Assembly: GCA_000092065.1 (NCBI GenBank)
Contig: CP000583.1
Source of the DNA: Ostreococcus lucimarinus
Taxonomy: Eukaryota
DNA length: 64,000 nucleotides
Strand: one strand, 5' to 3'
Numbering within the stretch: position 1 is the first letter of the stretch; every line of letters starts with the position of its first letter. Position numbers and translations under genes: made by a program. Positions 37,560 through 56,854 of the stretch are shown here, in pieces. A model generated the notes under the pieces. The model was not told where the DNA came from, did not search any database, and saw only the letters and a list, made by a program, of their open reading frames with translations.

Positions 37560-39548
37560 ATGCTTCGAGCGAGCGCGGCGCGACGAGACGTGCCGACGCC
37601 GGTCCTGGGGAGGTTATCGCTCGCGCGCGTGGCGCTGGTGGCGATGCGCGTGGAGCCGGAGGTGACGGAGGCGAGCGCGCGGGAGACGCTGCGGCGGGTG
37701 GTGGAATCGACGGTGCGCGCGGAGCTGCGAACGCTGCGAACGGCGTTCGGAGACGCGGCGACGGACGAGGGCGAGGGATGGCGCGATGTGCACGTGTTGG
37801 GGATGTCGAGCGAGACGTACGTGTGCGTGACGCCGCGGAAGTACGCGGAGGCGACGAAGATGGTGTGTCGGGCGACGACGAGCGACGAGAAAATTAAAGA
37901 GGCAAAGATTCCAGTGCGCGTGACGGAGGTGACGACGTGCGAGGGGAAGGATCAGATGGATGTGTTGCGGAGTTTGGTGCCGACGTTGGTTATGCAGGCG
38001 TTCGGAGAGGTGCCGCACTGGCGTGCGTTCGGGCGCACGGAGTACGGGACGCGGTTCATGTACGAAGACTTTTTCCCGTCGGTGCCGGGAGGGATGACGC
38101 ACGCCTTCGGGGTCGAGATTGAACACGGAATCAAAGTCACCAAGGCGCCGGCGACGCTGGCGCAGGACATCGGTGAAGATTGTGAAATTGAGATTCTGTT
38201 TCCAAGCATCAACGCCGTGGCGCTGCGGCTGCAACGATTTGGATCGGTGATCGACGAAATGCGACAACACGGAGTGGCGACGGCGAAAATCAGATCATTC
38301 ATCGACGGCGCCAAAGTCGTCGAGATCCACGACACGCCGATCATGGCGCAAGCGGCGCCGGAAATCGGCGTTGAAGTCGGTATCGTCGCGATTCGTCGCG
38401 AAGTTCCGCGTCCTTGCGGCTTCAAATCGATCGCAGAATTCAGAATCGCCTTCGAGTCGTCGCTCGGAACGTTTGTGCCCAGACACGCTCACACGGATGA
38501 TTCAGAGGAGGAACTTCTCGCTGATATCTGCGTTCCTGGGTGCGATAAACCTTTCTTATGGCCCGTGTCTTTGCTTCTCAAAAGCACTGGAGGTACCGAA
38601 TTTCCGGCAAGGCAGTCGCATGTGACGAACGACCACGTGCTGCGATTTCTCGAAGCCGCGCGACGCGTGAACATCGTCGACGCCCATCTTTCCTGGCTCG
38701 TCCGACGGAGCACGTTCTTGGCTCGTGAGAGCGCGCCCAAGAGTGGACCTGTCGTCCCAGATCGTGATATCTTCGTCGGCGCCTCGCACAACCGAAGCGG
38801 ATGGCCCGCGTTTTCTGCCCGAGCTAACGGGATGCCAGATTCGCTCGAGATGTGGGTCGATCCTTGGCCGCCGAATCGTAACGCGTTGCCGGATAGCATC
38901 TTCTCGCCACACGATATGGTCCCACCGAACTTTACGTCTACACCACCATCCATTCCACCAACGTTGAAAGCGCCGGGCGAAAGCAGTGATCTATTCATCG
39001 GCGAAGATTTCGACGATATCATTGATTGCGCGATGGACTTGTCTCCGTCTCGAATCGTCGCCAACGCGAGAAAGCGCATGCGCGTTGAATCTTCCGGCGA
39101 CGAAGCGCCTCCAGTGCTCGGGAGCCGCGTGACGCAGGATGGTATTCAAAAGTCACAGTTTTACAGCGTGCCAGGAGCTCCACCGATGAAGAAAAGGACG
39201 ACGCCGACGGGTCGAGAAAATCTCAAGAATCGAATCGTCGCCGCGTACGGAGTCGACAATACTGAAGTTTCCAAGCGTTTTCTCGATGTCTGTCTGCTGA
39301 TTGAGGCCGACAAACTTGATCAAATTACCGTCTCTCGGCACCATGCATTGGATGCTGCGGTGACTGACGCCCGAAACTTGATCAAATCTGTTTTGAAAAA
39401 GTATGAAGACGACGAAAACGGCAAGAATTTTGTAGAGCGATGTGGCCTTGTGCTGACGCAGATCCCGAAGGGGCGGAAGAAAGTGGAACTCATTGATTTC
39501 TTGCGAAGCGCTTTCGATCTAAAGATAAAGACGAAAACAAAGTTATAA
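37560..39548 (+). CDS. Hypothetical protein (662 aa); no confident family assignment
   Basis: Long non-repetitive ORF with ATG at 37560 and protein-like composition. Possible C-terminal alpha-helical domain. Confidence 0.4.
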   Translation: MLRASAARRDVPTPVLGRLSLARVALVAMRVEPEVTEASARETLRRVVESTVRAELRTLRTAFGDAATDEGEGWRDVHVLGMSSETYVCVTPRKYAEATKMVCRATTSDEKIKEAKIPVRVTEVTTCEGKDQMDVLRSLVPTLVMQAFGEVPHWRAFGRTEYGTRFMYEDFFPSVPGGMTHAFGVEIEHGIKVTKAPATLAQDIGEDCEIEILFPSINAVALRLQRFGSVIDEMRQHGVATAKIRSFIDGAKVVEIHDTPIMAQAAPEIGVEVGIVAIRREVPRPCGFKSIAEFRIAFESSLGTFVPRHAHTDDSEEELLADICVPGCDKPFLWPVSLLLKSTGGTEFPARQSHVTNDHVLRFLEAARRVNIVDAHLSWLVRRSTFLARESAPKSGPVVPDRDIFVGASHNRSGWPAFSARANGMPDSLEMWVDPWPPNRNALPDSIFSPHDMVPPNFTSTPPSIPPTLKAPGESSDLFIGEDFDDIIDCAMDLSPSRIVANARKRMRVESSGDEAPPVLGSRVTQDGIQKSQFYSVPGAPPMKKRTTPTGRENLKNRIVAAYGVDNTEVSKRFLDVCLLIEADKLDQITVSRHHALDAAVTDARNLIKSVLKKYEDDENGKNFVERCGLVLTQIPKGRKKVELIDFLRSAFDLKIKTKTKL

Positions 39549-39647: not shown

Positions 39648-41609
39648 TTAAAGATTCCTCAACAACGTTTCGAGTTTAGTCATCGTCTCCTCCGAAAGCG
39701 CGGACGATGGGTTAGTGTTAATATACTCTAACTCCTCGCGCATTGTTTCTGTCGCGCGCTTGACCGCCTTGGCGAGCATATCTTCGACTTCTTCCGCAGT
39801 CTTATTGTTCGCGAAACCTTTTTGGATGGCAAACAAACCGACGGTTTGCTCGGCGAGCGACGCGACCTCTCCTTGCTTTTGCTTGAGGAAACCACGAATG
39901 GCCTCGGAGCGGCTACGAAGCTTGCTTTTTTCTGTTCCAGCGCTACCAAACGTACCCATGTCGTCCGATTGCATCAAATCGAGGCGAAGTTGAAGAAAGT
40001 TGAGCGAGCGGAAAGGCCCCGCAGCGCCCGGCGCGCCGATGCGACTCACCGAATCTTTCGCGCTGATGATCCATCCTTTCGCCGGATCGTACGAATCGAC
40101 AAAAACTTGACCATCAGTGATGGACATGAACTCTTCGACCATCGGTCGCGACTGCACGAACGCGGACTCGGGAAATTCGTCATCCGCCGTGGATACGTGC
40201 GCCGCCTTGGCTTTTTCCTCGAGCGCCTTGCGCAGCTTCTCTTGCACGGCGGCAGGCATGGAGTCGAAACCCTTGATCGATTCGACGCTGCTCGGGAGCA
40301 CAGCGCCACCCGAACCGGCGCCTTCGACCCCAGATTTGAACGTCTTCTTGTACGCCCCCTTCGGATGGTACATGACGCCCATGAGCGTGATGGACCCACC
40401 CTTGAGTTCGTCGTTCATTCTAGCAACGCGTTGGAGCGTCATACCTAAGAATCTGCGACGTTCGGCGAGTGAAGCGGAAATCAACATGCCCTCGTACTCT
40501 TCCATTTGCTCTTCCGTACCCTCGGCGACGTTCAACTGCGGTGCCATGCGCGCCATATCCTTGGTGAAGTTGACCAAGCCGGTGAAATCGTCGAGCACCA
40601 AGAGGACGTCTTCGCCCAAAGCACGCGCGCCCTCCGCGATGGCGAACGCCGTGCACGTGGCCGCGTAGCGCTCGGCCTCGCTCGGTTCATCGTCCACGGT
40701 CACGATCGTGGTGTGCGACATCGCCCCGTCTCCCTCTAATCGCTTCGCGACTTCGTCGACGCGAGACGCCTGGGCGCCCAGCGCCGCGTACACGCACCGC
40801 ACGCCCGTACTCCTTTGCGCCACGATCGATGTCAATCCGAGCTCGGAAAGTCCCGTTCCCGGTTCACCGCTCACCAGCATGCACTGCCCGCGCCCGACCG
40901 GGGCCAATAAATCCACAGCCTTGATCCCCGTCACGAGCGGCGTCGTGATCGGCTTTCTTTCCTCCACGCTCGGCGGTTCGCGCATCATCTTCGACGAATC
41001 CTCCGTTCCGGTCACCATCGCCGACCCATCCCTCGCCTCCCCGAACGCGTCCACGATCTTCCCTCGCGTCGCCCTCGCGCTCGGTCCCCACACGAACTCC
41101 GTCTTGCTCGCCTCCGCCGTCTTCCCCACCGCCCTCGCGCCGTCGCCCGTCCGTCGCCGCTCCCCTCCCTCGCCGCCGTCGAACATCAGCGCGAACGTCT
41201 TCGGTTCCCGATGGCTCAGCAGCACCGCCCGTCCGCCATCCGCGAATCGCAGCACCGCTCCCGGCGGCGCCGCGCTTCGCATGCCCTCCAGCGCGACGAC
41301 GCCGCCCCGCTCCGCCCGCGCGCACGTCCCGCTGAAATTCTTCATCCGATCCTCGTCCTCCACGCTCTCCACCGTCGGCGCCGCGCTCGATCGCGCGTCC
41401 TCCGGCACGGGTTTGCCCGCGATTCGCGCCCGCGCCACCGCCTCGGTCCCGCGCGCGCGCCGCGAGACGCCGTCGCCGCGATCGCCCGGTCGGCGGCGCG
41501 TCGCCGCGATCGTCGCCGTCGCGTCGCGTCGCGCGGGCGCGGCGCGGCGCGCGACGGCGCGACACGCGCGCGCGAGCGTCATCGCGCGATGCGGCGCGAC
41601 GGCGAGCAT
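39648..41609 (-). CDS. ATP synthase F1 alpha-subunit-like paralog with degenerate P-loop
   Basis: Alpha-type architecture is present: N-terminal beta-barrel region, ITTPLVTGIKAVDLLAPVGRGQ, VLLVLDDFTGLVNFTKDMA, SITDGQVFVD and DSVSRIGAPGAAG. The Walker A position reads GEPGTGLS in place of the canonical GDRQTGKT, so the lysine is lost. ATG 41609 with an Arg/Ala-rich leader. Confidence 0.7.
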   Translation of the reverse strand: MLAVAPHRAMTLARACRAVARRAAPARRDATATIAATRRRPGDRGDGVSRRARGTEAVARARIAGKPVPEDARSSAAPTVESVEDEDRMKNFSGTCARAERGGVVALEGMRSAAPPGAVLRFADGGRAVLLSHREPKTFALMFDGGEGGERRRTGDGARAVGKTAEASKTEFVWGPSARATRGKIVDAFGEARDGSAMVTGTEDSSKMMREPPSVEERKPITTPLVTGIKAVDLLAPVGRGQCMLVSGEPGTGLSELGLTSIVAQRSTGVRCVYAALGAQASRVDEVAKRLEGDGAMSHTTIVTVDDEPSEAERYAATCTAFAIAEGARALGEDVLLVLDDFTGLVNFTKDMARMAPQLNVAEGTEEQMEEYEGMLISASLAERRRFLGMTLQRVARMNDELKGGSITLMGVMYHPKGAYKKTFKSGVEGAGSGGAVLPSSVESIKGFDSMPAAVQEKLRKALEEKAKAAHVSTADDEFPESAFVQSRPMVEEFMSITDGQVFVDSYDPAKGWIISAKDSVSRIGAPGAAGPFRSLNFLQLRLDLMQSDDMGTFGSAGTEKSKLRSRSEAIRGFLKQKQGEVASLAEQTVGLFAIQKGFANNKTAEEVEDMLAKAVKRATETMREELEYINTNPSSALSEETMTKLETLLRNL

Positions 41610-41722
41610 GCCGACGCGCGCGCGTCGTCGCGGTGTGCGGCGGCGCCGTCGCGCGCGCGTCGGCCGCACTCGCGCGCGCGCCGAAGCGCCGCGCCGCGAC
41701 GACGCGACGCCGCGACGACGCG

Positions 41723-42568
41723 ATGGCGAAGAAGAAGGCGTCTCGAACGTCGCCCGCGGTCGAGCGCGCGCCGGCGCGCGCGAGCGACGGCGCGACGGCG
41801 ACGACGGGCGCGAACTGGGCGGCGCTGAAAAAGCGCATCAACGCCGGCGCGTCGAGCGCGGCCAAGGCGGCGGCCGCGGCGCGACGCGCGCTGGAGGACG
41901 TCGACGATGCGACGCGAACGCGCGACGGCGGGCGCGACGCGAGCGCGACGCCGAGGGCGACGGGACGGAACACGGCGGTGACGGCGGTGCTGGCGCTGGA
42001 CTGCGAGATGGTCGGCGTCGGCGCGGACGGGAAGCGGTCGATCCTCGCGCGAGCGTCCATCGTGAACGAGGATGGGAACGTGATCATGGACGCGCACGTG
42101 CTGCCGACGGAGCGGGTGACGGATTACAGGACGGCGGTGTCGGGGGTGCGAGCGAAGGATTTGACGGCGGCGAACGGCGCGGTGGCGTTTAAAAAGGTGC
42201 AGGCGCAGATGAGCGAACTGCTGAGGGGACGGATATTGGTGGGGCACTCCTTGAAGAATGATATGCGGGTGCTGATGCTGGATCATCCGAAGCGAGACAC
42301 GCGGGACACGAGTTTGTATCATCCGCTGACGAGGCCGTTGCGGCCGGAGGAGCGGTGCGTTCCGGGCGCGCCTCGCGGTCGCGGATGTCGCGCCCTGCGC
42401 GATCTCGCGCGGCAGCATTTAGGGTTAGAGATTCAAAAGGGCGAGCACTCCTCCGTGGACGACGCGCGGGCGACGTTGGCGCTGTATAAAAAGTTTGCCA
42501 AGCGGTGGGAGAGCGCGCTGCGCCGCGCCGACGGTAGAGACAAATTCAAAAAGCGTCGCGTCGACTAG
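41723..42568 (+). CDS. REX4-like DEDDh 3'-5' RNA exonuclease
   Basis: TAVLALDCEMVGVGADGKRS...ILVGHSLKNDMRVLML...EHSSVDDARATLALYKK. ATG 41723. Confidence 0.75.
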   Translation: MAKKKASRTSPAVERAPARASDGATATTGANWAALKKRINAGASSAAKAAAAARRALEDVDDATRTRDGGRDASATPRATGRNTAVTAVLALDCEMVGVGADGKRSILARASIVNEDGNVIMDAHVLPTERVTDYRTAVSGVRAKDLTAANGAVAFKKVQAQMSELLRGRILVGHSLKNDMRVLMLDHPKRDTRDTSLYHPLTRPLRPEERCVPGAPRGRGCRALRDLARQHLGLEIQKGEHSSVDDARATLALYKKFAKRWESALRRADGRDKFKKRRVD

Positions 42569-42781
42569 CGTCGATTCGTTCGATTCGCGTTTAATCGTCG
42601 TTTAATCGCACGTTTGTATCACCGAATCGCCCGCGCTTCGCCGCCGCGTCGATGAGGCGAGTCGTCCCGCCGCGCCTCGCCTCGGCCCGCGACTCAAAGT
42701 CGTTGCCAGCCTCGGATCGTCACATCGAACCGCACCCCGCCCGCGCGCGCGCATCTCGCGCGCGCGACGCGACGCGAAACG

Positions 42782-44263
42782 ATGGCGACCGCCGTGCTGT
42801 CGTCCATGGACGTCGACGCGCGACCGCAAACGGGTCTGCGCGCGTATTACGACGCGAAAATCGAAGAGTTGGAGGTTCGCCTGCGCGACAAGACGCAGAA
42901 TCTTCGACGCTTAGAGGCGCAGAGAAATGAATTGAACGGACGAGGTGCGCGGAGCGCGCGTGAGAAGGGCGTCGTCGTCGTCGATCGCGCGAGCGCGGTG
43001 CGCGAACGGACGCGAAAGCGTGATGAGAGGAACGATCGAGGCGAGATCGCGAACGACGCGCGAACGACGAGCGAAGACTGACTTTGAATTTCGTTCGGTT
43101 TACCGCGCGCGCGCAGTTCGATCGCTTCGCGAGGAATTGCACATGTTGCAGGAACCCGGATCGTACGTCGGGGAGGTGGTGAAGGTGATGGGGAAGAAGA
43201 AAGTGTTGGTCAAGGTGAGCGGACGACTCGCCCGCGCGGCGCGCCGAGCGCGCGGAGACGGCGAGAGAGGAAAGAATACTGACAGTTTGTGTTTCGCGCG
43301 CAGGTGCACCCGGAGGGAAAATACGTGTGTGATATGGACAAGAGCATCGATGTGACGAAACTGACGGCGGGGACTCGGGTGGCGTTGAGGAACGATTCGT
43401 ACACGCTGCACGTGATCCTTCCGTCGAACATCGACCCGCTCGTGTCGCTCATGAAGGTTGAAAAGGTTCCCGATTCCACGTTCGATATGATTGGTGGATT
43501 GGATCAGCAAGTGAAGGAGATCAAGGAAGTCGTGGAGTTACCGATCAAGCACCCAGAGCTTTTCGACGCGCTCGGGATCGCGCAACCGAAGGGGGTCATC
43601 CTTTACGGTCCCCCGGGTACCGGGAAGACGCTCTTGGCTCGTGCCGTTGCGCACCACACCGATTGCTGCTTCATTCGCGTGTCTGGTTCGGAATTAGTTC
43701 AAAAGTACATAGGAGAAGGGGCGCGGATGGTTCGTGAACTGTTCGTCATGGCTCGCGAGCACGCGCCGAGCATCTTGTTCATGGATGAAGTAGATTCTAT
43801 CGGTAGCGCTCGCGACGGAGGCGGCGGAGGTGGAGGCGACAGCGAAGTGCAGCGTACGATGCTTGAACTGCTCAACCAGCTCGACGGTTTCGAGGCGACG
43901 AACAAGATTAAGGTGATCATGGCCACGAACCGCCTCGATATCCTCGATCAGGCGCTTCTTCGTCCGGGCCGCATCGATCGTAAAATCGAGTTCCCCAATC
44001 CATCTGAAGACAGCCGCGTCGATATTCTCAAGATTCATAGCCGCAAGATGAACCTCGTTCGCGGGATCGATCTTAAGAAGATCGCGAGCAAGATGGGTGG
44101 GGCTTCCGGGGCAGAATCCAAGGCGGTGTGCACCGAGGCCGGAATGTTCGCGCTTCGCGAACGTCGCGTCCACGTCACGCAAGAAGACTTTGAAATGGCC
44201 GTATCCAAGGTGATGCAAAAGGATAGCGAAAAGAACATTTCCGTGAAAAAGCTCTTTTCGTAA
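42782..44263 (+). CDS. RPT6: 26S proteasome regulatory ATPase subunit Rpt6 (PSMC5), 3 exons
   Basis: Exons 42782..42944, 43117..43214 and 43304..44263. The joined product aligns colinearly with Rpt6 ([15 protein letters not shown]...QRNELNGR|[34 protein letters not shown]|HPEGKYVCD...[20 protein letters not shown]...). Introns are GTGCGC...ACTGAC...CAG and GTGAGC...ACTGAC...CAG. Confidence 0.9.
42945..43116 (+). other. Rpt6 intron 1
   Basis: GTGCGC...GAAGACTGAC...CGCGCAG. Phase-1 junction gives NGR|VRSLREEL. Confidence 0.8.
43215..43303 (+). other. Rpt6 intron 2
   Basis: GTGAGC...AATACTGACAG...GCGCAG. Junction gives LVKV|HPEGKYV. Confidence 0.85.
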
Positions 44264-52210: not shown

Positions 52211-55200
52211 CTACAGTACGGACTCAAGAGACCGGTTGGGGGGCAGCAGATCAGCCATTTCGCTCTTCAAACGCTCGAGAGCGTCCGCGTACGAAATGTG
52301 CGCGTTCTCTGTCTTTTTGCTCAACAACCTCCGCCAGCGAGCAAACAATGCCTCCAACGTTCGGGCACTACGAACGTAAGGAAGCACGACTTCCCACACG
52401 TACCGCATATTTTCCGTGCCCAGCCAGGTTGTTCTGTCCACCTGGAACGCACCCGCGCCGCCGCCTTTTTCGGCGAGCGCGGCCAAGGCGAACGCGATGA
52501 CGGCGTCTTCGAGGTCCGACCACATAAGATCGCCGGACCGCGTCTCGCCGTGCTCGTCGATGAGTCGCTTCGCGTTCTCGAGGAGCGCCTTGGCCTGAGC
52601 GTCGAGCGTCGCTTTTTTGTCCCTCTCTTTGGGCTCGATGTCCTCGTACTTCGCCGTTTCGCTCTTCAAACGCTCGAGAGCGTCCGCGTACGAAATGGAA
52701 TTGTTCTCTGTCTTTTTGCTCAACACCTTCCGCCAGCGAGCACACAATGCCACCGGCATTCGGCCACTACGAACGTAAGGAAGCACGACTTCCCACACGT
52801 ACCGCATATTTTCCGTGCCCAGCCAGGTTGTTCTGTCCACCTGGAACGCACCCGCGCCGCCGCCTTTTTCGGCGAGCGCGGCCAAGGCGAACACGATGAC
52901 GGCGTCTTCGAGGTCCGACCACATAAGCTTGCCGGACCGCGTCTCGCCGTGCTCGTCGATGAGTCGCTTCGCGTTCTCGAGGAGCGCCTTGGCCTGAGCG
53001 TCGAGCGTCGCTTTTTTGTCCCTCTCTTTGGGCTCGATGTCCTCGTACTTCGCCGTTTCGCTCTTCAAACGCTCGAGAGCGTCCGCGTACGAAATGGAAT
53101 TGTTCTCTGTCTTTTTGCTCAACACCTTCCGCCAGCGAGCACACAATGCCTCCGACGTTCGGGCACTACGAACGTAAGGAAGCACGACTTCCCACACGTA
53201 CCGCATATTTTCCGTGCGCAGCGCGGTTGTTCTGTCCACCTGGAACGCACCCGCGCCGCCGCCTTTTTCGGCGAGCGCGGCCAAGGCGAACGCGATGGCG
53301 GCGTCTTCGAGGTCCGACCACATAAGATCGCCGGACCGCGTCTCGCCGTGCTCGTCGATGAGTCGCTTCGCGTTCTCGAGGAGCGCCTTGGCCTGAGCGT
53401 TTAGCGTCGCCTCCGTACTCGCCCCCACTTCAGGGCGGAGCACGTATTTTTCAGCAATGCTCGCGTACTTGGCGTCGTATGTGTCTCCGTTCGCCGCGGC
53501 GAGAAGAACGCCAAAAATCAGGCGACGCATGTTCAATTGTTTGCCCGCGCGTGCGTCGACATCGCTGTACGCAGCCGCGAAGTTCTCTTTCGAGAATTTT
53601 GCGACATCGACTTTTTTGTCCGTCGATTCCATGCGACTTCGCCAGAACGTTATGAACCATGTGATTGGGGCGGACAAGCCCCCTCGAAGCAACTCTCGTA
53701 ATTGTCGTGCATTGATTGCGTCACTCTCGCGGGCGGATGCGGTTTCCACGCGCGCTACCGAACGCGCTTCCTCGGGTGAAAGCGTACCCTCGGCGCTGTG
53801 AATCAAAACGAGTAGTGAACGCAGCGCCTGCGGATACCGAATCCAATGAGCGACGAGTCGTCCGCTCAAGGCGTCACCGTACTGTGATGTCTTCGTGTGC
53901 ATCTTCGTGATCCTATATAGCTCCATGTAGACCGCCTTACTTGGCAGAATTATTTCTGCGTCGCGAAACCAAATTTCCAGCGCCGCTTCGAGACGGTCGG
54001 GTTGGCTTCGGCAAGCTTCTCCCAGGAACGCCGTAAGGAATTCCTTGTTACCCAGCGAATCGATGAGAGCGCGCGCATGACCGCCGTTTGCGTCAAAACG
54101 GAGCAAGTCTCGAAATAACGAGAGGATTGCGCCGTCTTCAATGTCGCACGCCTTCTCGTCGCCGCCGAAGAAGCGCGCCGTGAGCGACCGCGAGGACGGC
54201 TGCGCGCCCGATCCATTTCCGTTCGAGACCGCCTCGGCGCCCGCCAAAAGATCGACAAAGGCACTCCAAAAGTTTTGCGTGAAGAAAACGAGCAGCCGAT
54301 TTACTAGGTCAGGCGAGACTGTCGAGTCGGCAAAGATCGTCTCGTGACGTGCGAGCACTATGCTGCTCATGGTGCGTACCGCAGTCGCGGCGCGGTCGGT
54401 GTCTTCTCCGTAACAGCGCAGCACCCACGGGTTTGTGGCGAAGCCGGCAGTGTCTGCCATGGAGACGACCGGCACCTTGCGGTGACCGGCGATGCGAATG
54501 CCCGGCGTCGCTCGGTTCAAGGCCCACGTCGAACCCAGCTCGATCCACGTTTTCAGAAAATAGGTCCAGACTATTTCAACAAACATTCCATCGAACGCGC
54601 CCAGAGCAGCGAGCGCGTGCATTCGTACGTATTTCGGCTTGTTCGACTTGTGCGTCGCGCGGTACTCGAGGACAAAGGCCACGAATGCGCTGAGCAGTCG
54701 TCCCATTCGACGTCTCGTCGGGTGAGTGATGGCGTGGAACCGGACGTTGGCGTCGACGATAGGTTCCCAGCACTTTGATGGATTGCCGCTCACCGTGAAG
54801 TCGACGTAACGGACGAGCGTGTTGTCTCTCGCTCGAATGTGCGCTTGCTGCGCGTTGTCGCCGTCACTAATGAGGTAGTTTCGATGCTCTCCCAAGCGTG
54901 TTGAAAACCAGCGCTCCGATTCGCCGACGTACGCGCCTTCATCGGACCGCACCAGCCACACGTACGCGTTGACCGGCTCAGCGTACAACCTCGCCTTCAG
55001 GTCGCCGCGCGAGTCGCGATGTTCTCGAGACTTCAACCAATTCGATAACGTTCGTAGGTGCTCCATGAGTTCTAGCGCCCCCGACTTGTCGTCACCCAGC
55101 GTCTCGCCGACGTCGTAAAATTGCTCCACAAAAAAAGCCGGGACGTGCGTCGTACTAAAGTACGTGTGGCGCCAGGTTGACGTGTCCGCTAGATGTCCCG

Positions 55201-56821
55201 CAACTGAGGCGTCTTGAGTATCTCTGCGCTGCGCGCCGATGATGTCGCCGCTGAGCGTTTGGATGGGTGTGTCGGCGCCGCTCACCCAGCCAGGCACGCG
55301 AGCGACTTCTCGTAGGAAGGATTTGATGCTTTCGTCGCTGGCATCCTTCGGGTCGAAGGCGTCCTTGAATCCAACGAGAGGGAAGCACTCGCAGCGGTCG
55401 AGAAAAGTTAACATGGCGTCCTTCGCCTTGGACATGTTGTCCCCATCGGCGAGCCACTGCTCGGCGTCGAGCACGAACTCCTCTAAAACGGGAGACAAGT
55501 TCGCCTCGAAGTGGACGTCAAGCACCCCGCGAATCTTTGCGTTTGCGTCGTACATAGCCTTCGCGCTCCCTGCGATCGCGGGACCTACGAATCGTCGCGC
55601 GCGCGATTCCAGCGAATCATCTGAAACCTCCACCGCCGGCGCCGGGGACGGCGTCGCCGGTTTATGGGTTTGGCGACAATGGTCTAGAATTTCGCGTCGC
55701 CAATCGGTCATCTTAATAGAGCCGAATTTGGCGCGCACGTGCGCGACCTCTGCCCCTTCCCCTTCCTTCTCCTCTTCCCCTTCTTCTTCCCCTTCCCCTT
55801 CGTCTTCGTGTTCGTCTTCGTCTTCGTGTGCATCTTCGTCTTTGTCTTCGACGAATCCGTCTGCGAGTGGGGCGAACAAGTTACCGCGCGACTTGGCGCG
55901 ACGACGCGGGCGACACGCCCGCCCCGTGTGCAACTCTCGTACCGTGCCACCCGGCGACTGCTCGTGCTGCGCATCACTCTCGGCGTAGGTCGGCGAGGCG
56001 TGAAATTGTGCGGCTCGCTTGCCTGTCGCCGCCAGGATCGGAGGACTCTGCGGTTCGTCGTCACCGACCGCGTGCGCTGATGCCATCATTCGACACAAGG
56101 CGACGTCCATCGCCGTTCTCTCAATGATTTGGTCCGCATCGGCGCGGCCGCGCAACATCGCTCCGAGCGTGCCCTGAACGTCGTTCCGAGCTCGTTGAAG
56201 CGTCTCTTCGTCGGGTTCGTCGGGTTCGTCGGGTTCGGCGGGCGCGGTGCGCGGTTCGATCGATTCGTAGTGCATCTGCGCACGCTCGCCACCGCTGAGA
56301 ACGAGCGTTACGTCGATCGTAGCCTCTTCCGGCTCGATGATGACGTCGGCGTCTCCGTCGGGCGTCGCAGACAAACTGTCCGATATTACGCGCACGCGCA
56401 TCTTGTGCACGTCGGCCAACGCCATGAGCGAGAATTCGTCGCCCCACTTGCCCCCGAGCTGACCCAGGCTTGCGCACTCGGCCAGAAACTCCTCGCGTAT
56501 CTCACCCTCACTGAGATCTTCACGTCCTGCACCGTTCGCTGTATCGAGAAAACCGATGCGCACCGGCACTATATCGTCGTCGTCGACGCGACGCTCCAAC
56601 CAGGCCGCGGCTTGGTGGCGTAAAAGTTCCACCGACACTTCGCGTTCGGGATCGGTTCGTCCTATGGCGGCGACAATCGCGTGGAACTGGCAGTCGCCCC
56701 CGCCCTCGGTGGTGACTCTCTGGACGCGCTCACGGATGAGGCGCCGCTCCAACCGACCTAGTCGCGCTTCGCCGTAGAGGCGCGGGTGACGTTTTCCCCA
56801 CTCCGCGAGAACGTCTGCCAT
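52211..56821 (-). CDS. Giant OTU-domain (deubiquitinase-like) protein with acidic tract and triplicated C-terminal 133-aa module
   Basis: OTU Cys box (GGGDCQFHAIVAAIG) and His box (QMHYESI) near the N-terminus. Poly-D/E tract. About 1000 aa of unassigned sequence. Three near-identical C-terminal repeats. First ATG 56821; the ORF extends to 56854 with a non-ATG. Confidence 0.65.
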   Translation of the reverse strand: MADVLAEWGKRHPRLYGEARLGRLERRLIRERVQRVTTEGGGDCQFHAIVAAIGRTDPEREVSVELLRHQAAAWLERRVDDDDIVPVRIGFLDTANGAGREDLSEGEIREEFLAECASLGQLGGKWGDEFSLMALADVHKMRVRVISDSLSATPDGDADVIIEPEEATIDVTLVLSGGERAQMHYESIEPRTAPAEPDEPDEPDEETLQRARNDVQGTLGAMLRGRADADQIIERTAMDVALCRMMASAHAVGDDEPQSPPILAATGKRAAQFHASPTYAESDAQHEQSPGGTVRELHTGRACRPRRRAKSRGNLFAPLADGFVEDKDEDAHEDEDEHEDEGEGEEEGEEEKEGEGAEVAHVRAKFGSIKMTDWRREILDHCRQTHKPATPSPAPAVEVSDDSLESRARRFVGPAIAGSAKAMYDANAKIRGVLDVHFEANLSPVLEEFVLDAEQWLADGDNMSKAKDAMLTFLDRCECFPLVGFKDAFDPKDASDESIKSFLREVARVPGWVSGADTPIQTLSGDIIGAQRRDTQDASVAGHLADTSTWRHTYFSTTHVPAFFVEQFYDVGETLGDDKSGALELMEHLRTLSNWLKSREHRDSRGDLKARLYAEPVNAYVWLVRSDEGAYVGESERWFSTRLGEHRNYLISDGDNAQQAHIRARDNTLVRYVDFTVSGNPSKCWEPIVDANVRFHAITHPTRRRMGRLLSAFVAFVLEYRATHKSNKPKYVRMHALAALGAFDGMFVEIVWTYFLKTWIELGSTWALNRATPGIRIAGHRKVPVVSMADTAGFATNPWVLRCYGEDTDRAATAVRTMSSIVLARHETIFADSTVSPDLVNRLLVFFTQNFWSAFVDLLAGAEAVSNGNGSGAQPSSRSLTARFFGGDEKACDIEDGAILSLFRDLLRFDANGGHARALIDSLGNKEFLTAFLGEACRSQPDRLEAALEIWFRDAEIILPSKAVYMELYRITKMHTKTSQYGDALSGRLVAHWIRYPQALRSLLVLIHSAEGTLSPEEARSVARVETASARESDAINARQLRELLRGGLSAPITWFITFWRSRMESTDKKVDVAKFSKENFAAAYSDVDARAGKQLNMRRLIFGVLLAAANGDTYDAKYASIAEKYVLRPEVGASTEATLNAQAKALLENAKRLIDEHGETRSGDLMWSDLEDAAIAFALAALAEKGGGAGAFQVDRTTALRTENMRYVWEVVLPYVRSARTSEALCARWRKVLSKKTENNSISYADALERLKSETAKYEDIEPKERDKKATLDAQAKALLENAKRLIDEHGETRSGKLMWSDLEDAVIVFALAALAEKGGGAGAFQVDRTTWLGTENMRYVWEVVLPYVRSGRMPVALCARWRKVLSKKTENNSISYADALERLKSETAKYEDIEPKERDKKATLDAQAKALLENAKRLIDEHGETRSGDLMWSDLEDAVIAFALAALAEKGGGAGAFQVDRTTWLGTENMRYVWEVVLPYVRSARTLEALFARWRRLLSKKTENAHISYADALERLKSEMADLLPPNRSLESVL
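52264..53440 (-). repeat. Three tandem copies of a 399-bp unit (about 99% identical) inside the OTU-protein CDS
   Basis: Antisense ORFs 52368..52745 and 52767..53144 are identical apart from 2 residues. A third copy follows from 53166. The protein module ATLDAQAKALLENAKRLIDEHGETRSG...ISYADALERLKSE occurs three times. Confidence 0.9.
55752..55860 (-). repeat. GAA/GAG-rich simple repeat encoding a poly-Glu/Asp tract in the OTU protein
   Basis: cccttccccttccttctcctcttcc... on the plus strand, translated on the minus strand as EDEDEHEDEGEGEEEGEEEKEGEG. Confidence 0.8.
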
Positions 56822-56854
56822 GCCTCCCCGCCTCGTCTCCGCCTCGTCTGTCAC

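What the first reader, a model, noticed from the sequence alone, without database searches (positions are those of the whole stretch)
39648..41609. Nuclear ATP-synthase alpha-like paralog lacking the P-loop lysine
The protein is colinear with F1/CF1 alpha (beta-barrel, nucleotide-binding core, SITDGQVFVD, DSVSRIG...). The Walker A position reads GEPGTGLS where alpha normally has GDRQTGKT. Insertions are also present. In green algae the canonical alpha subunits are organelle-encoded. A nuclear, probably organelle-targeted (Arg/Ala leader), nucleotide-binding-deficient alpha homolog is therefore unexpected. It could be an assembly factor, a regulatory pseudo-subunit, or a component of a different complex.
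Basis: partly seen in the sequence, partly recalled or inferred. Interest (0 to 1): 0.6.

Follow-up and report, generated by a model that had tools for sequence, protein, structure and literature searches.

The report
Ostreococcus xATPA: ATP-synthase alpha-like pseudo-subunit
This gene encodes the Ostreococcus lucimarinus copy of xATPA, a nuclear, organelle-targeted relative of the ATP-synthase alpha subunit with a dead nucleotide site; a July 2026 preprint described the family and lists this exact protein, so the finding is correct but not new.

Summary
Window 39648-41609 (minus strand) is one uninterrupted 653-codon ORF. Its product has the three-domain fold of F1 alpha, and GEPGTGLS sits where alpha has GDRQTGKT (Lys to Leu254).

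It is neither a canonical alpha, nor a pseudogene, nor an annotation artefact. It is far below the atpA model cut-offs. It falls in a clade separate from canonical alphas. Its mature part has dN/dS of about 0.11. The same motif occurs in all Mamiellophyceae orthologues and in an ocean transcript.

The family is already described as xATPA (ATP1B in Chlamydomonas) in bioRxiv 10.64898/2026.07.08.737214. That preprint's table lists this exact O. lucimarinus sequence.

The defining features are present:
- an N-terminal presequence;
- a 73-residue "bump" insertion at the family's position;
- the invariant alpha arginine finger (R523) and SITDGQ.

The likely mechanism is inferred from diatom experiments. 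The protein would be a non-catalytic, beta-binding pseudo-subunit that joins incomplete F1 assemblies in the plastid.

My addition is that the P-loop lysine loss is clade-specific. It is lost in Mamiellophyceae (0 of 8) and kept in most other green (24 of 29) and SAR-type (10 of 14) xATPAs.

The parts
39648..41609 (-). Complete coding sequence of xATPA: 653 aa plus a stop codon at 39648-39650. The start may instead be Met10 at 41582, which is where the gene caller began the closest orthologue's protein.
   Evidence: ORF list and translation. It is 100% identical to cluster P0001/P0121. Residues 89-487 equal the preprint's 'xATPA_CHL_MAM_Ostreococcus_lucimarinus' entry exactly.
41346..41609 (-). 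N-terminal presequence (aa 1-88), Arg/Ala-rich, presumed organelle-targeting peptide. It is missing from the public gene model, which starts at Met89.
   Evidence: pLDDT is below 50 over residues 1-86. It has 18 Arg and 22 Ala, a net charge of +11 in the first 60 residues, and the first acidic residue at position 29. dN/dS is 0.6-0.7 here against 0.11 for the core. A Tara transcript covers it from aa 67.
41085..41345 (-). N-terminal beta-barrel (crown) domain, aa 89-175.
   Evidence: The model has strands at 92-172. The region aligns to the N-terminal domain of alpha chains.
40845..40868 (-). Degenerate Walker A (P-loop), GEPGTGLS at aa 248-255. Leu254 replaces the Lys and Ser255 replaces the Thr.
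   Evidence: Census: Lys in 76 of 78 canonical alphas and in 0 of 8 Mamiellophyceae xATPAs.
40587..40604 (-). Walker B strand LLVLDD (aa 336-341). Both aspartates are retained.
40434..40556 (-). Remodelled segment (aa 352-392) that replaces alpha's [26 protein letters not shown]. It has a variable acidic loop, an EYEGM motif and a long helix carrying the family motif AERRRFLG..LQR.
   Evidence: Alignments. Helix 366-392 in the model. The motif recurs in green and diatom-type members.
40149..40367 (-). The 'bump' insertion (aa 415-487, a net gain of about 66 aa). It lies between the strand GGSITLMGVMY and the SITDGQ helix, and contains a 22-residue helix (aa 453-474) with the conserved pattern F..MP...QEKL..AL.
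   Evidence: GGS-to-SITDGQ spacing is 92, against 26 in canonical alphas and 84-93 in diatom-type xATPAs. It sits at the same alignment position as in Chlorella, a chlorophycean and two diatom-type sequences. Against the closest orthologue it has no non-synonymous changes, with synonymous pS = 0.147.
40107..40124 (-). SITDGQ (aa 496-501). Ser496 is equivalent to bovine alpha Ser344, a residue at the catalytic interface.
   Evidence: Invariant in the family alignment. The Ser is present in all 51 xATPA-like sequences scored. The bovine numbering comes from my own count of the sequence as I remember it.
40035..40052 (-). SVSRIG (aa 520-525). Arg523 (nt 40041-40043) is equivalent to the alpha arginine finger (bovine Arg373), which reaches into the beta catalytic site.
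   Evidence: Invariant. Arg is present in 8 of 8 Mamiellophyceae, 27 of 29 other green and 14 of 14 SAR-type sequences. The preprint also reports this arginine as conserved in all xATPAs.
39651..40019 (-). C-terminal helical domain (aa 531-653).
   Evidence: PF00306 matches aa 541-651. The model has helices at 531-652 with pLDDT of about 90.

Best explanation
The gene is the Ostreococcus lucimarinus orthologue of xATPA, which is called ATP1B in Chlamydomonas. xATPA is a nucleus-encoded, organelle-targeted, highly diverged paralogue of the F1 ATP-synthase alpha subunit.

Shown here:
- It keeps the alpha fold.
- It keeps the residues alpha contributes to the catalytic alpha/beta interface: the Arg finger R523 and S496 in SITDGQ.
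- Its own (non-catalytic) nucleotide site has lost the P-loop Lys and Thr.
- A 73-residue bump is inserted right after the strand that ends at that site.
- The whole mature protein, bump included, is under strong purifying selection.

Inferred from the diatom work and from this anatomy: after import, most likely into the plastid, the protein docks through its intact catalytic-interface face onto a beta subunit, and onto gamma. It does not bind ATP itself. The bump sterically blocks the beta that would sit on its non-catalytic face. The protein therefore ends up in incomplete F1 sub-assemblies of the 2 alpha : 2 beta : 1 xATPA type. There it would act as a non-catalytic pseudo-subunit that buffers, chaperones or regulates unassembled beta/F1, rather than making ATP.
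For: Identity:
- The 399 visible residues of the preprint's O. lucimarinus xATPA entry equal window aa 89-487 exactly. A Tara unigene classed as chlorophyte xATPA equals aa 67-465.
- A neighbour-joining tree of 133 sequences over 487 columns separates canonical alphas from the rest in 200 of 200 bootstraps. It recovers an xATPA-like clade, which includes a diatom (Stephanopyxis) sequence, in 178 of 200.
- The bump lies at the same position as in the diatom-type sequences.

A functional gene:
- dN/dS is 0.11-0.12 for aa 89-653, and the bump has no non-synonymous change against the closest orthologue.
- Gene order is conserved on an independent 261-kb contig.

Interface logic:
- R523 and SITDGQ are invariant, while the P-loop Lys is absent in 8 of 8 Mamiellophyceae.

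Mechanism, from the preprint:
- P. tricornutum xATPA-GFP co-localises with chlorophyll.
- Purified xATPA binds plastid ATPB with Kd 1.2e-8 M, against 2.3e-9 M for ATPA.
- It pulls down ATPB and ATPC.
- AlphaFold 3 places it in a 2 alpha : 2 beta : 1 xATPA assembly on gamma, with the bump blocking the third beta.
- Knock-outs keep normal Fv/Fm but fail to grow in cold, low-salinity, constant-light conditions.
Against: - No experiment exists for Ostreococcus or any prasinophyte, so localisation and partners are extrapolated from a diatom.
- The diatom protein is only about 26-30% identical to this one. In pairwise BLAST it is no closer than canonical alpha.
- The preprint itself says that the green and SAR bumps may not be homologous.
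- A labyrinthulomycete xATPA did not complement the diatom knock-out.
- The targeting predictions reported there are split between mitochondria and plastids.
- Chlamydomonas ATP1B is annotated as mitochondrial.
- The claim that the bump lies on the non-catalytic face is my inference from sequence position. I could not inspect model coordinates or predict a complex.
- The source is an unreviewed preprint.
Confidence: 0.75

Rival explanations
1. The protein is the same xATPA, but in Ostreococcus it works in the mitochondrion. Its partners would be the mitochondrial F1 beta and gamma subunits, not the plastid CF1 subunits.
For: The Arg/Ala-rich, Ser-poor presequence looks as much like a mitochondrial presequence as a transit peptide. 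The preprint reports predictions of either mitochondria or chloroplasts across taxa. Chlamydomonas ATP1B is annotated as a mitochondrial isoform. xATPA also occurs in non-photosynthetic labyrinthulomycetes.
Against: The only experimental localisations are plastidial: P. tricornutum by GFP and the Euglena plastid proteome. Chlamydomonas ATP1B expression is reported as synchronised with the plastid ATP-synthase genes.
Confidence: 0.2
2. It has left the F1 world altogether. The bump recruits unrelated partners, or the protein forms its own oligomer, and any beta binding is an in-vitro relic.
For: Diatom knock-outs show no ATP-synthase or photosynthesis phenotype, and their transcriptome changes point to protein metabolism. 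The bump is strictly conserved among Ostreococcus species.
Against: The Arg finger and SITDGQ matter only at an alpha/beta catalytic interface, yet they are kept in 49 of 51 and 51 of 51 xATPA-like sequences. The protein's own P-loop decays repeatedly over the same history. ATPB and ATPC were pulled down from diatom lysate.
Confidence: 0.1
3. It is simply the canonical nuclear-encoded alpha subunit of an organellar ATP synthase in this lineage.
For: The best family matches are atpA models, and the fold is alpha.
Against: - It scores 168.7 bits against a 554-bit cut-off and 157.4 against 484.
- It is about 25% identical to canonical alphas, which are about 45% identical to each other on the same columns.
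- It lacks the P-loop Lys and carries a 66-residue net insertion.
- It falls outside the canonical clade in 200 of 200 bootstraps.
Confidence: 0.02
4. It is a decaying duplicate (pseudogene), or the missing GKT is an artefact of an unrecognised intron or frameshift.
For: None beyond the degenerate motif itself.
Against: - The ORF is continuous over 653 codons.
- dN/dS is 0.11.
- The same Leu or Val is found at this position in all 8 Mamiellophyceae representatives, which come from independent contigs.
- An identical sequence occurs in an ocean metatranscriptome unigene.
Confidence: 0.01

Closest known systems
xATPA of Phaeodactylum tricornutum (Phatr3_J31465, UniProt B7FRE6; bioRxiv 10.64898/2026.07.08.737214)
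   Same: It is a nuclear gene with an N-terminal targeting extension and an alpha fold. It has an insertion of about 60-70 residues at the same place between the GGS strand and the S(I/M)(T/S)DGQ helix. It has a degenerate P-loop (GHDVHDMR in P. tricornutum), a conserved Arg finger and the shared ...RxF(Y/F)SSL(I/L)QR helix motif. It falls in the same non-canonical clade.
   Different: It shares only about 26-30% identity with this protein. The bump sequence is unrelated between the green and SAR types. The diatom presequence is bipartite, for a secondary plastid. The P-loops were lost independently. All experimental data (plastid localisation, beta/gamma binding, cold, low-salinity and constant-light phenotype) exist only for the diatom.
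Chlamydomonas reinhardtii ATP1B (Cre10.g419050) and the other core-chlorophyte xATPAs (Chlorella sorokiniana PRW45016.1, Picochlorum, Apatococcus, Bryopsis, Pleodorina)
   Same: They belong to the same green-type family and are about 30% identical to this protein. They share the VEYEGML..AAQRRRF and VEEFMSITDGQ motifs, the bump position and the Arg finger.
   Different: They keep an intact Walker A (G..GSGKT), whereas Ostreococcus, Micromonas and Bathycoccus-type sequences have Leu or Val in place of the Lys. Several of them have Asn in place of the first Walker B Asp.
Canonical F1/CF1 alpha subunit (atpA / atp1)
   Same: It has the same three-domain architecture, the same order of motifs, the same Arg finger and SITDGQ, and Walker B aspartates.
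   Different: The canonical subunit is organelle-encoded in this lineage and has GDRQTGKT. It has no bump and a conserved [12 protein letters not shown] loop. It is an obligatory member of the 3:3 hexamer.
V/A-type ATPase B subunit (functional analogy only)
   Same: It is a non-catalytic member of the alpha/beta ATPase superfamily that has lost the consensus P-loop yet still pairs with a catalytic partner. This rests on my own knowledge of the family.
   Different: Sequence relationship is remote: the NCBIfam V-type B model scores E = 1e-9, against 2e-49 for atpA. The B subunit is a stoichiometric ring member, not a sub-stoichiometric extra.
Bacterial alternative F1-like alphas (N-ATPase alpha TIGR03324; Mycoplasma gliding MMOB1660 and MSC_0619 alphas)
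   Same: They are diverged alpha paralogues that coexist with a canonical ATP synthase. They are the next-best NCBIfam matches, at 2.5e-41 and 2.7e-32.
   Different: They come with their own beta partner in an operon and keep the P-loop. Here the scores are far below the cut-offs (142 bits against 750, and 112 against 600), and the window contains no partner gene.

Membership tests
xATPA (nucleus-encoded divergent F-type alpha homologue) | The sequence is part of the published family set. | tested here: met
   The preprint's Supplemental Table 1 entry 'xATPA_CHL_MAM_Ostreococcus_lucimarinus' (399 residues visible) is an exact substring of the window protein, aa 89-487.
xATPA (nucleus-encoded divergent F-type alpha homologue) | It has an alpha-type fold and is closer to alpha than to beta. 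| tested here: met
   atpA models score 2e-49 and 5e-46, against 2e-13 for atpD. The listed PDB sequence and fold matches are all alpha chains.
xATPA (nucleus-encoded divergent F-type alpha homologue) | It forms a clade separate from canonical plastid, mitochondrial and bacterial alphas. | tested here: met
   Neighbour-joining bootstraps give 200 of 200 for canonical versus the rest. They give 178 of 200 for the xATPA-like clade, which includes the diatom Stephanopyxis. Caveats: this is a distance method, there is no beta outgroup, and the canonical set is unlabelled.
xATPA (nucleus-encoded divergent F-type alpha homologue) | A bump insertion of about 60 aa protrudes from the central domain at a fixed position. 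| tested here: met
   The insertion covers aa 415-487. The GGS-to-SITDGQ spacing is 92 residues, against 26 in canonical alphas and 84-93 in diatom-type xATPAs. It occupies the same alignment columns as in green and diatom-type members.
xATPA (nucleus-encoded divergent F-type alpha homologue) | It has an unfolded N-terminal targeting extension. | tested here: met
   Residues 1-86 have pLDDT below 50. The composition is Arg/Ala-rich. Constraint is relaxed, with dN/dS of 0.6-0.7. The transcript extends upstream of the annotated Met89. The actual import destination was not tested.
xATPA (nucleus-encoded divergent F-type alpha homologue) | The P-loop is not conserved. | tested here: met
   The motif is GEPGTGLS, with Leu254 in place of the Lys.
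xATPA (nucleus-encoded divergent F-type alpha homologue) | The arginine finger towards the beta catalytic site is conserved. | tested here: met
   R523 lies in SVSRIG and is invariant in the family alignment.
xATPA (nucleus-encoded divergent F-type alpha homologue) | It is plastid-localised and physically binds ATPB and ATPC. | not testable with these tools
   This has been shown only for P. tricornutum. It needs tagging and pull-down experiments in Ostreococcus.
Canonical F0F1 ATP synthase subunit alpha (atpA / atp1) | It reaches the curated equivalog score. | tested here: not met
   NF009884 scores 168.7 bits against a 554-bit cut-off. TIGR00962 scores 157.4 against 484.45.
Canonical F0F1 ATP synthase subunit alpha (atpA / atp1) | It has Walker A GDRxTGK[TS], which binds the non-catalytic nucleotide. 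| tested here: not met
   Lys is present in 76 of 78 canonical sequences. Here the residue is Leu254.
V/A-type ATPase B subunit | Its best family match is to V/A-type B models. | tested here: not met
   PRK04196 scores 1.2e-9 (37 bits against a 349-bit cut-off) and TIGR01041 scores 5e-6. Both are far weaker than the alpha models.

The most novel reading that the evidence does not exclude
xATPA may not be uniformly nucleotide-blind. In my census most green (24 of 29) and SAR-type (10 of 14) members keep the P-loop lysine. Mamiellophyceae (0 of 8), a Pyramimonas sequence and pennate-diatom-type sequences lost it independently. The ancestral xATPA would then have been a nucleotide-binding, possibly ATP/ADP-sensing, pseudo-subunit. 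The Ostreococcus and Micromonas form would be a derived, nucleotide-independent class with a different regulatory logic, fixed under strong purifying selection.
Probability: 0.3. Interest if true: 0.45.

Novelty: already known. Interest (0 to 1): 0.3.

Why it matters
xATPA is a widespread microalgal protein. It competes with alpha for the ATP-synthase beta subunit, and a diatom needs it to grow under cold, low-salinity, constant-light conditions. Its molecular role is still open.

Ostreococcus is abundant in the ocean. By my own knowledge it is genetically tractable and has organelle-encoded canonical alphas, so it would be a clean green-lineage system for asking what xATPA does.

Two points from this work are useful for that:
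- The public O. lucimarinus gene model, as listed in the preprint, lacks the presequence.
- The P-loop loss is clade-specific rather than family-wide. This allows natural Lys-versus-Leu comparisons between Chlorella-type and Ostreococcus-type proteins.

None of this changes the fact that the finding itself has already been published.

Tried and rejected
- Four literature searches with paralogue, Walker A, alpha-like and Chlamydomonas terms found nothing relevant. The fifth found the xATPA preprint.
- I first placed the alpha arginine finger in the [12 protein letters not shown] loop, which is lost here, and was about to conclude that the protein cannot support beta catalysis. Counting the bovine sequence from K175 puts Arg373 in SVSRVG, which is conserved here. 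The preprint agrees with the second.
- A regex split into canonical and non-canonical sequences was too crude and gave 0 of 100 bootstrap support. I replaced it with clade sets read off the tree.
- Pairwise BLAST of the window protein against fragments of diatom xATPA is no better than against canonical plastid alpha: 81 and 67 bits against 109 and 98. Pairwise similarity therefore cannot show membership. The tree, the shared insertion site and the exact listing do.
- The preprint's supplementary sequences are cut at about 400 residues in the held copy. I could not use the full P. tricornutum xATPA or the reference alpha and beta sets for a rooted maximum-likelihood tree.
- The AlphaFold-database fold library was not available, so there is no structural link to B7FRE6.
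- I looked for ATP-synthase partners among the window's neighbours and found none.
- No tool was available for targeting prediction or for predicting a complex.
Full report
**The observation**

Window 39648-41609 holds, on the minus strand, one uninterrupted ORF of 653 codons plus a stop.
- Pfam finds the alpha/beta ATP-synthase nucleotide-binding domain (3.9e-27) and C-terminal domain (9e-7).
- The best matches among solved structures are all F1 alpha chains, down to 6e-36.
- An AlphaFold2 model built on 23 family sequences has pLDDT 79 and pTM 0.77. It has the beta-barrel, Rossmann-type core and helical C-terminal domain of alpha. It matches alpha chains with Foldseek E of about 1e-37.
- GEPGTGLS (aa 248-255) aligns exactly to GDRQTGKT, so the P-loop Lys is Leu254 and the Thr is Ser255.

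**Not an artefact, pseudogene or canonical alpha**

There is no frame break. All eight Mamiellophyceae representatives, taken from independent contigs, have Leu or Val at the Lys position.

dN/dS against two orthologues is 0.11-0.12 for the mature part. It is 0.6-0.7 for the first 88 residues, as expected for a targeting peptide. The large insertion has no non-synonymous change against the closest orthologue. Gene order is conserved on an independent 261-kb contig: a divergent RNase_T exonuclease upstream, a convergent gene of about 660 aa downstream, then a RabGAP gene.

Scores against the curated atpA models are far below their cut-offs, at 168.7 against 554 and 157.4 against 484. On shared columns the protein is about 25% identical to canonical alphas, which are about 45% identical to each other.

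The neighbours are ordinary nuclear genes: RabGAP-TBC, RNase_T, a proteasomal AAA ATPase, a SET/PHD protein, a BEACH-WD40 protein, a kinase and a KH protein. There is no ATP-synthase partner among them.

**The family**

A word-indexed search found close relatives at 69-100% identity, Micromonas/Bathycoccus-type proteins at 44-51%, and trebouxiophyte proteins at about 30% (Picochlorum, Apatococcus, Nannochloris, Chlorella sorokiniana 'ATP synthase subunit alpha'). Bacterial alphas came only after that, at about 25%.

A profile search of 1.84 billion representatives extended the family to Bryopsis, Pleodorina, Pyramimonas, Cymbomonas and the diatom Stephanopyxis.

A neighbour-joining tree of 133 sequences over 487 columns gave these bootstrap values:
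- canonical alphas separate from everything else in 200 of 200;
- an xATPA-like clade spanning green and diatom types is recovered in 178 of 200;
- the Mamiellophyceae clade is recovered in 200 of 200.

**It is already described**

A literature search found bioRxiv 10.64898/2026.07.08.737214 (Penot-Raquin et al., 9 July 2026). It names this family xATPA. The preprint reports:
- 222 nucleus-encoded homologues in Chlorophyta, euglenophytes, dinoflagellates, haptophytes, chlorarachniophytes, cryptophytes and several heterokont groups, and none in land plants, red algae or cyanobacteria;
- an unfolded N-terminal targeting sequence;
- a 'bump domain' of about 60 aa;
- an inconsistent P-loop;
- a conserved arginine finger.

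Its Supplemental Table 1 lists 'xATPA_CHL_MAM_Ostreococcus_lucimarinus'. The 399 visible residues of that entry are an exact substring of the window protein, aa 89-487. A Tara Oceans unigene classed as chlorophyte xATPA equals aa 67-465. The window is therefore O. lucimarinus nuclear DNA, and the gene is a listed xATPA. In Chlamydomonas the orthologue is ATP1B (Cre10.g419050).

**How it most likely works**

Shown here:
- The residues that alpha contributes to the catalytic alpha/beta interface are kept throughout the family. These are the Arg finger (R523 here) and the Ser of SITDGQ (S496). Arg is present in 49 of 51 xATPA-like sequences and Ser in 51 of 51.
- The protein's own P-loop decays repeatedly over the same history.
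- The bump (aa 415-487) is inserted directly after the core strand GGSITLMGVMY. The Walker-B-proximal loop [12 protein letters not shown] is replaced by a variable acidic loop plus a long helix carrying AERRRFLG..LQR.

Reported for the diatom protein:
- It localises to the plastid.
- It binds plastid beta about five-fold more weakly than alpha does.
- It pulls down beta and gamma.
- AlphaFold 3 places it in a 2 alpha : 2 beta : 1 xATPA assembly in which the bump excludes the third beta.
- Knock-outs have normal photosynthetic parameters but cannot grow in cold, low-salinity, continuous-light conditions.

Inference: the Ostreococcus protein is imported into an organelle, most likely the plastid. 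It docks on beta through its intact catalytic-interface face, binds no nucleotide itself, and caps or buffers incomplete F1. It would be a non-catalytic regulatory or assembly pseudo-subunit.

I put identity at about 0.97 and this mechanism at about 0.45.

The main rival keeps the same mechanism but places it in the mitochondrion. The presequence is ambiguous, ATP1B is annotated as mitochondrial, and xATPA occurs in non-photosynthetic labyrinthulomycetes.

**What this adds to the preprint**

1. The loss of the P-loop lysine is clade-specific, not family-wide. Lys is present in 0 of 8 Mamiellophyceae, 24 of 29 other green and 10 of 14 SAR-type sequences. The losses are evidently independent: Mamiellophyceae, Pyramimonas, and the pennate-diatom type (GHDVHDMR in P. 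tricornutum).
2. The O. lucimarinus model used in the preprint starts at Met89 and omits an 88-residue presequence that is transcribed.
3. A second 'O. lucimarinus' entry in the preprint's table is a frame-shifted translation of this locus.
4. The remodelled ...RRRF(F/L)..L(I/L)QR helix is a second family signature shared by green and diatom types.

**Limits**

- The tree is a distance tree. It has no beta outgroup, and the canonical alphas in it are unlabelled.
- Pairwise similarity to diatom xATPA fragments is no higher than to canonical alpha.
- I could not inspect model coordinates, predict complexes or predict targeting.
- The key reference is an unreviewed preprint.

**Verdict**

The feature is a bona fide member of the recently described xATPA family, so it is already known. 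Interest is modest (0.3). It rests on the unresolved function of the family and on the clade-specific loss of the P-loop.

Noticed in passing
window 41346-41609 (-): The O. lucimarinus xATPA entry listed in the preprint starts at Met89 (nt 41345) and so lacks the Arg/Ala-rich presequence. The window ORF continues upstream to Met1 (41609) or Met10 (41582). A Tara transcript covers it from aa 67, and orthologues carry comparable leaders. That entry, and presumably the public gene model behind it, is probably truncated at the N-terminus.
   Followed up: yes
window 40864-42087 (-), overlapping the xATPA 5' half in another frame: [quoted passage not shown] This is the translation of the 407-aa alternative-frame ORF listed. 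At VTGIKAVDLL it switches into the true frame. It looks like a frame-shifted transcriptome contig of the same locus rather than a second gene (read by eye).
   Followed up: partly
Micromonas pusilla CCMP1545 orthologue (cluster of P0075; XP_003062668.1 and XP_003062669.1): The Micromonas pusilla orthologue appears in NCBI as two adjacent partial models of 374 aa and 165 aa, annotated 'H+- or Na+-translocating F-type, V-type and A-type ATPase superfamily'. A 676-aa version exists in metagenomes. The gene model is probably split, as the preprint notes for Thalassiosira.
   Followed up: no
window 40000-42600, both strands: Several long ORFs overlap in other frames or on the other strand: 40708-42192 (+) of 494 aa, 41211-41828 (+), and 41579-42418 (-). 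They are Arg/Gly/Ala-rich and lie in a stretch of 69% G+C. They look like by-products of composition, not genes.
   Followed up: no
window 41610-41722: Only 113 bp separate the xATPA start codon from the divergent start (MAKKK, 41723) of an RNase_T-family exonuclease gene. This implies a very compact shared promoter region. The same head-to-head pair is conserved in locus L001.
   Followed up: partly
window 37560-39548 (+) and 52211-56854 (-): Two long ORFs of 662 aa and 1547 aa have no Pfam match at E <= 1e-5. The 662-aa one is convergent with xATPA, with 99 bp between the two stop codons. It has a syntenic 660-aa counterpart in L001, so it is a conserved gene of unknown function.
   Followed up: no
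proteins P0216, P0248, P0281 (profile search): Three alpha-like proteins with Walker A GE(E/K/R)G.GK(T/S) sit between canonical alphas and the xATPA-like clade in the neighbour-joining tree. Their organisms and their relationship to xATPA are unknown.
   Followed up: no
window 43289-44263 (+): A proteasomal-type AAA ATPase ORF of 324 aa begins inside its OB domain. An upstream exon is probably separated from it by an intron. The syntenic gene in L001 is called at 312 aa.
   Followed up: no
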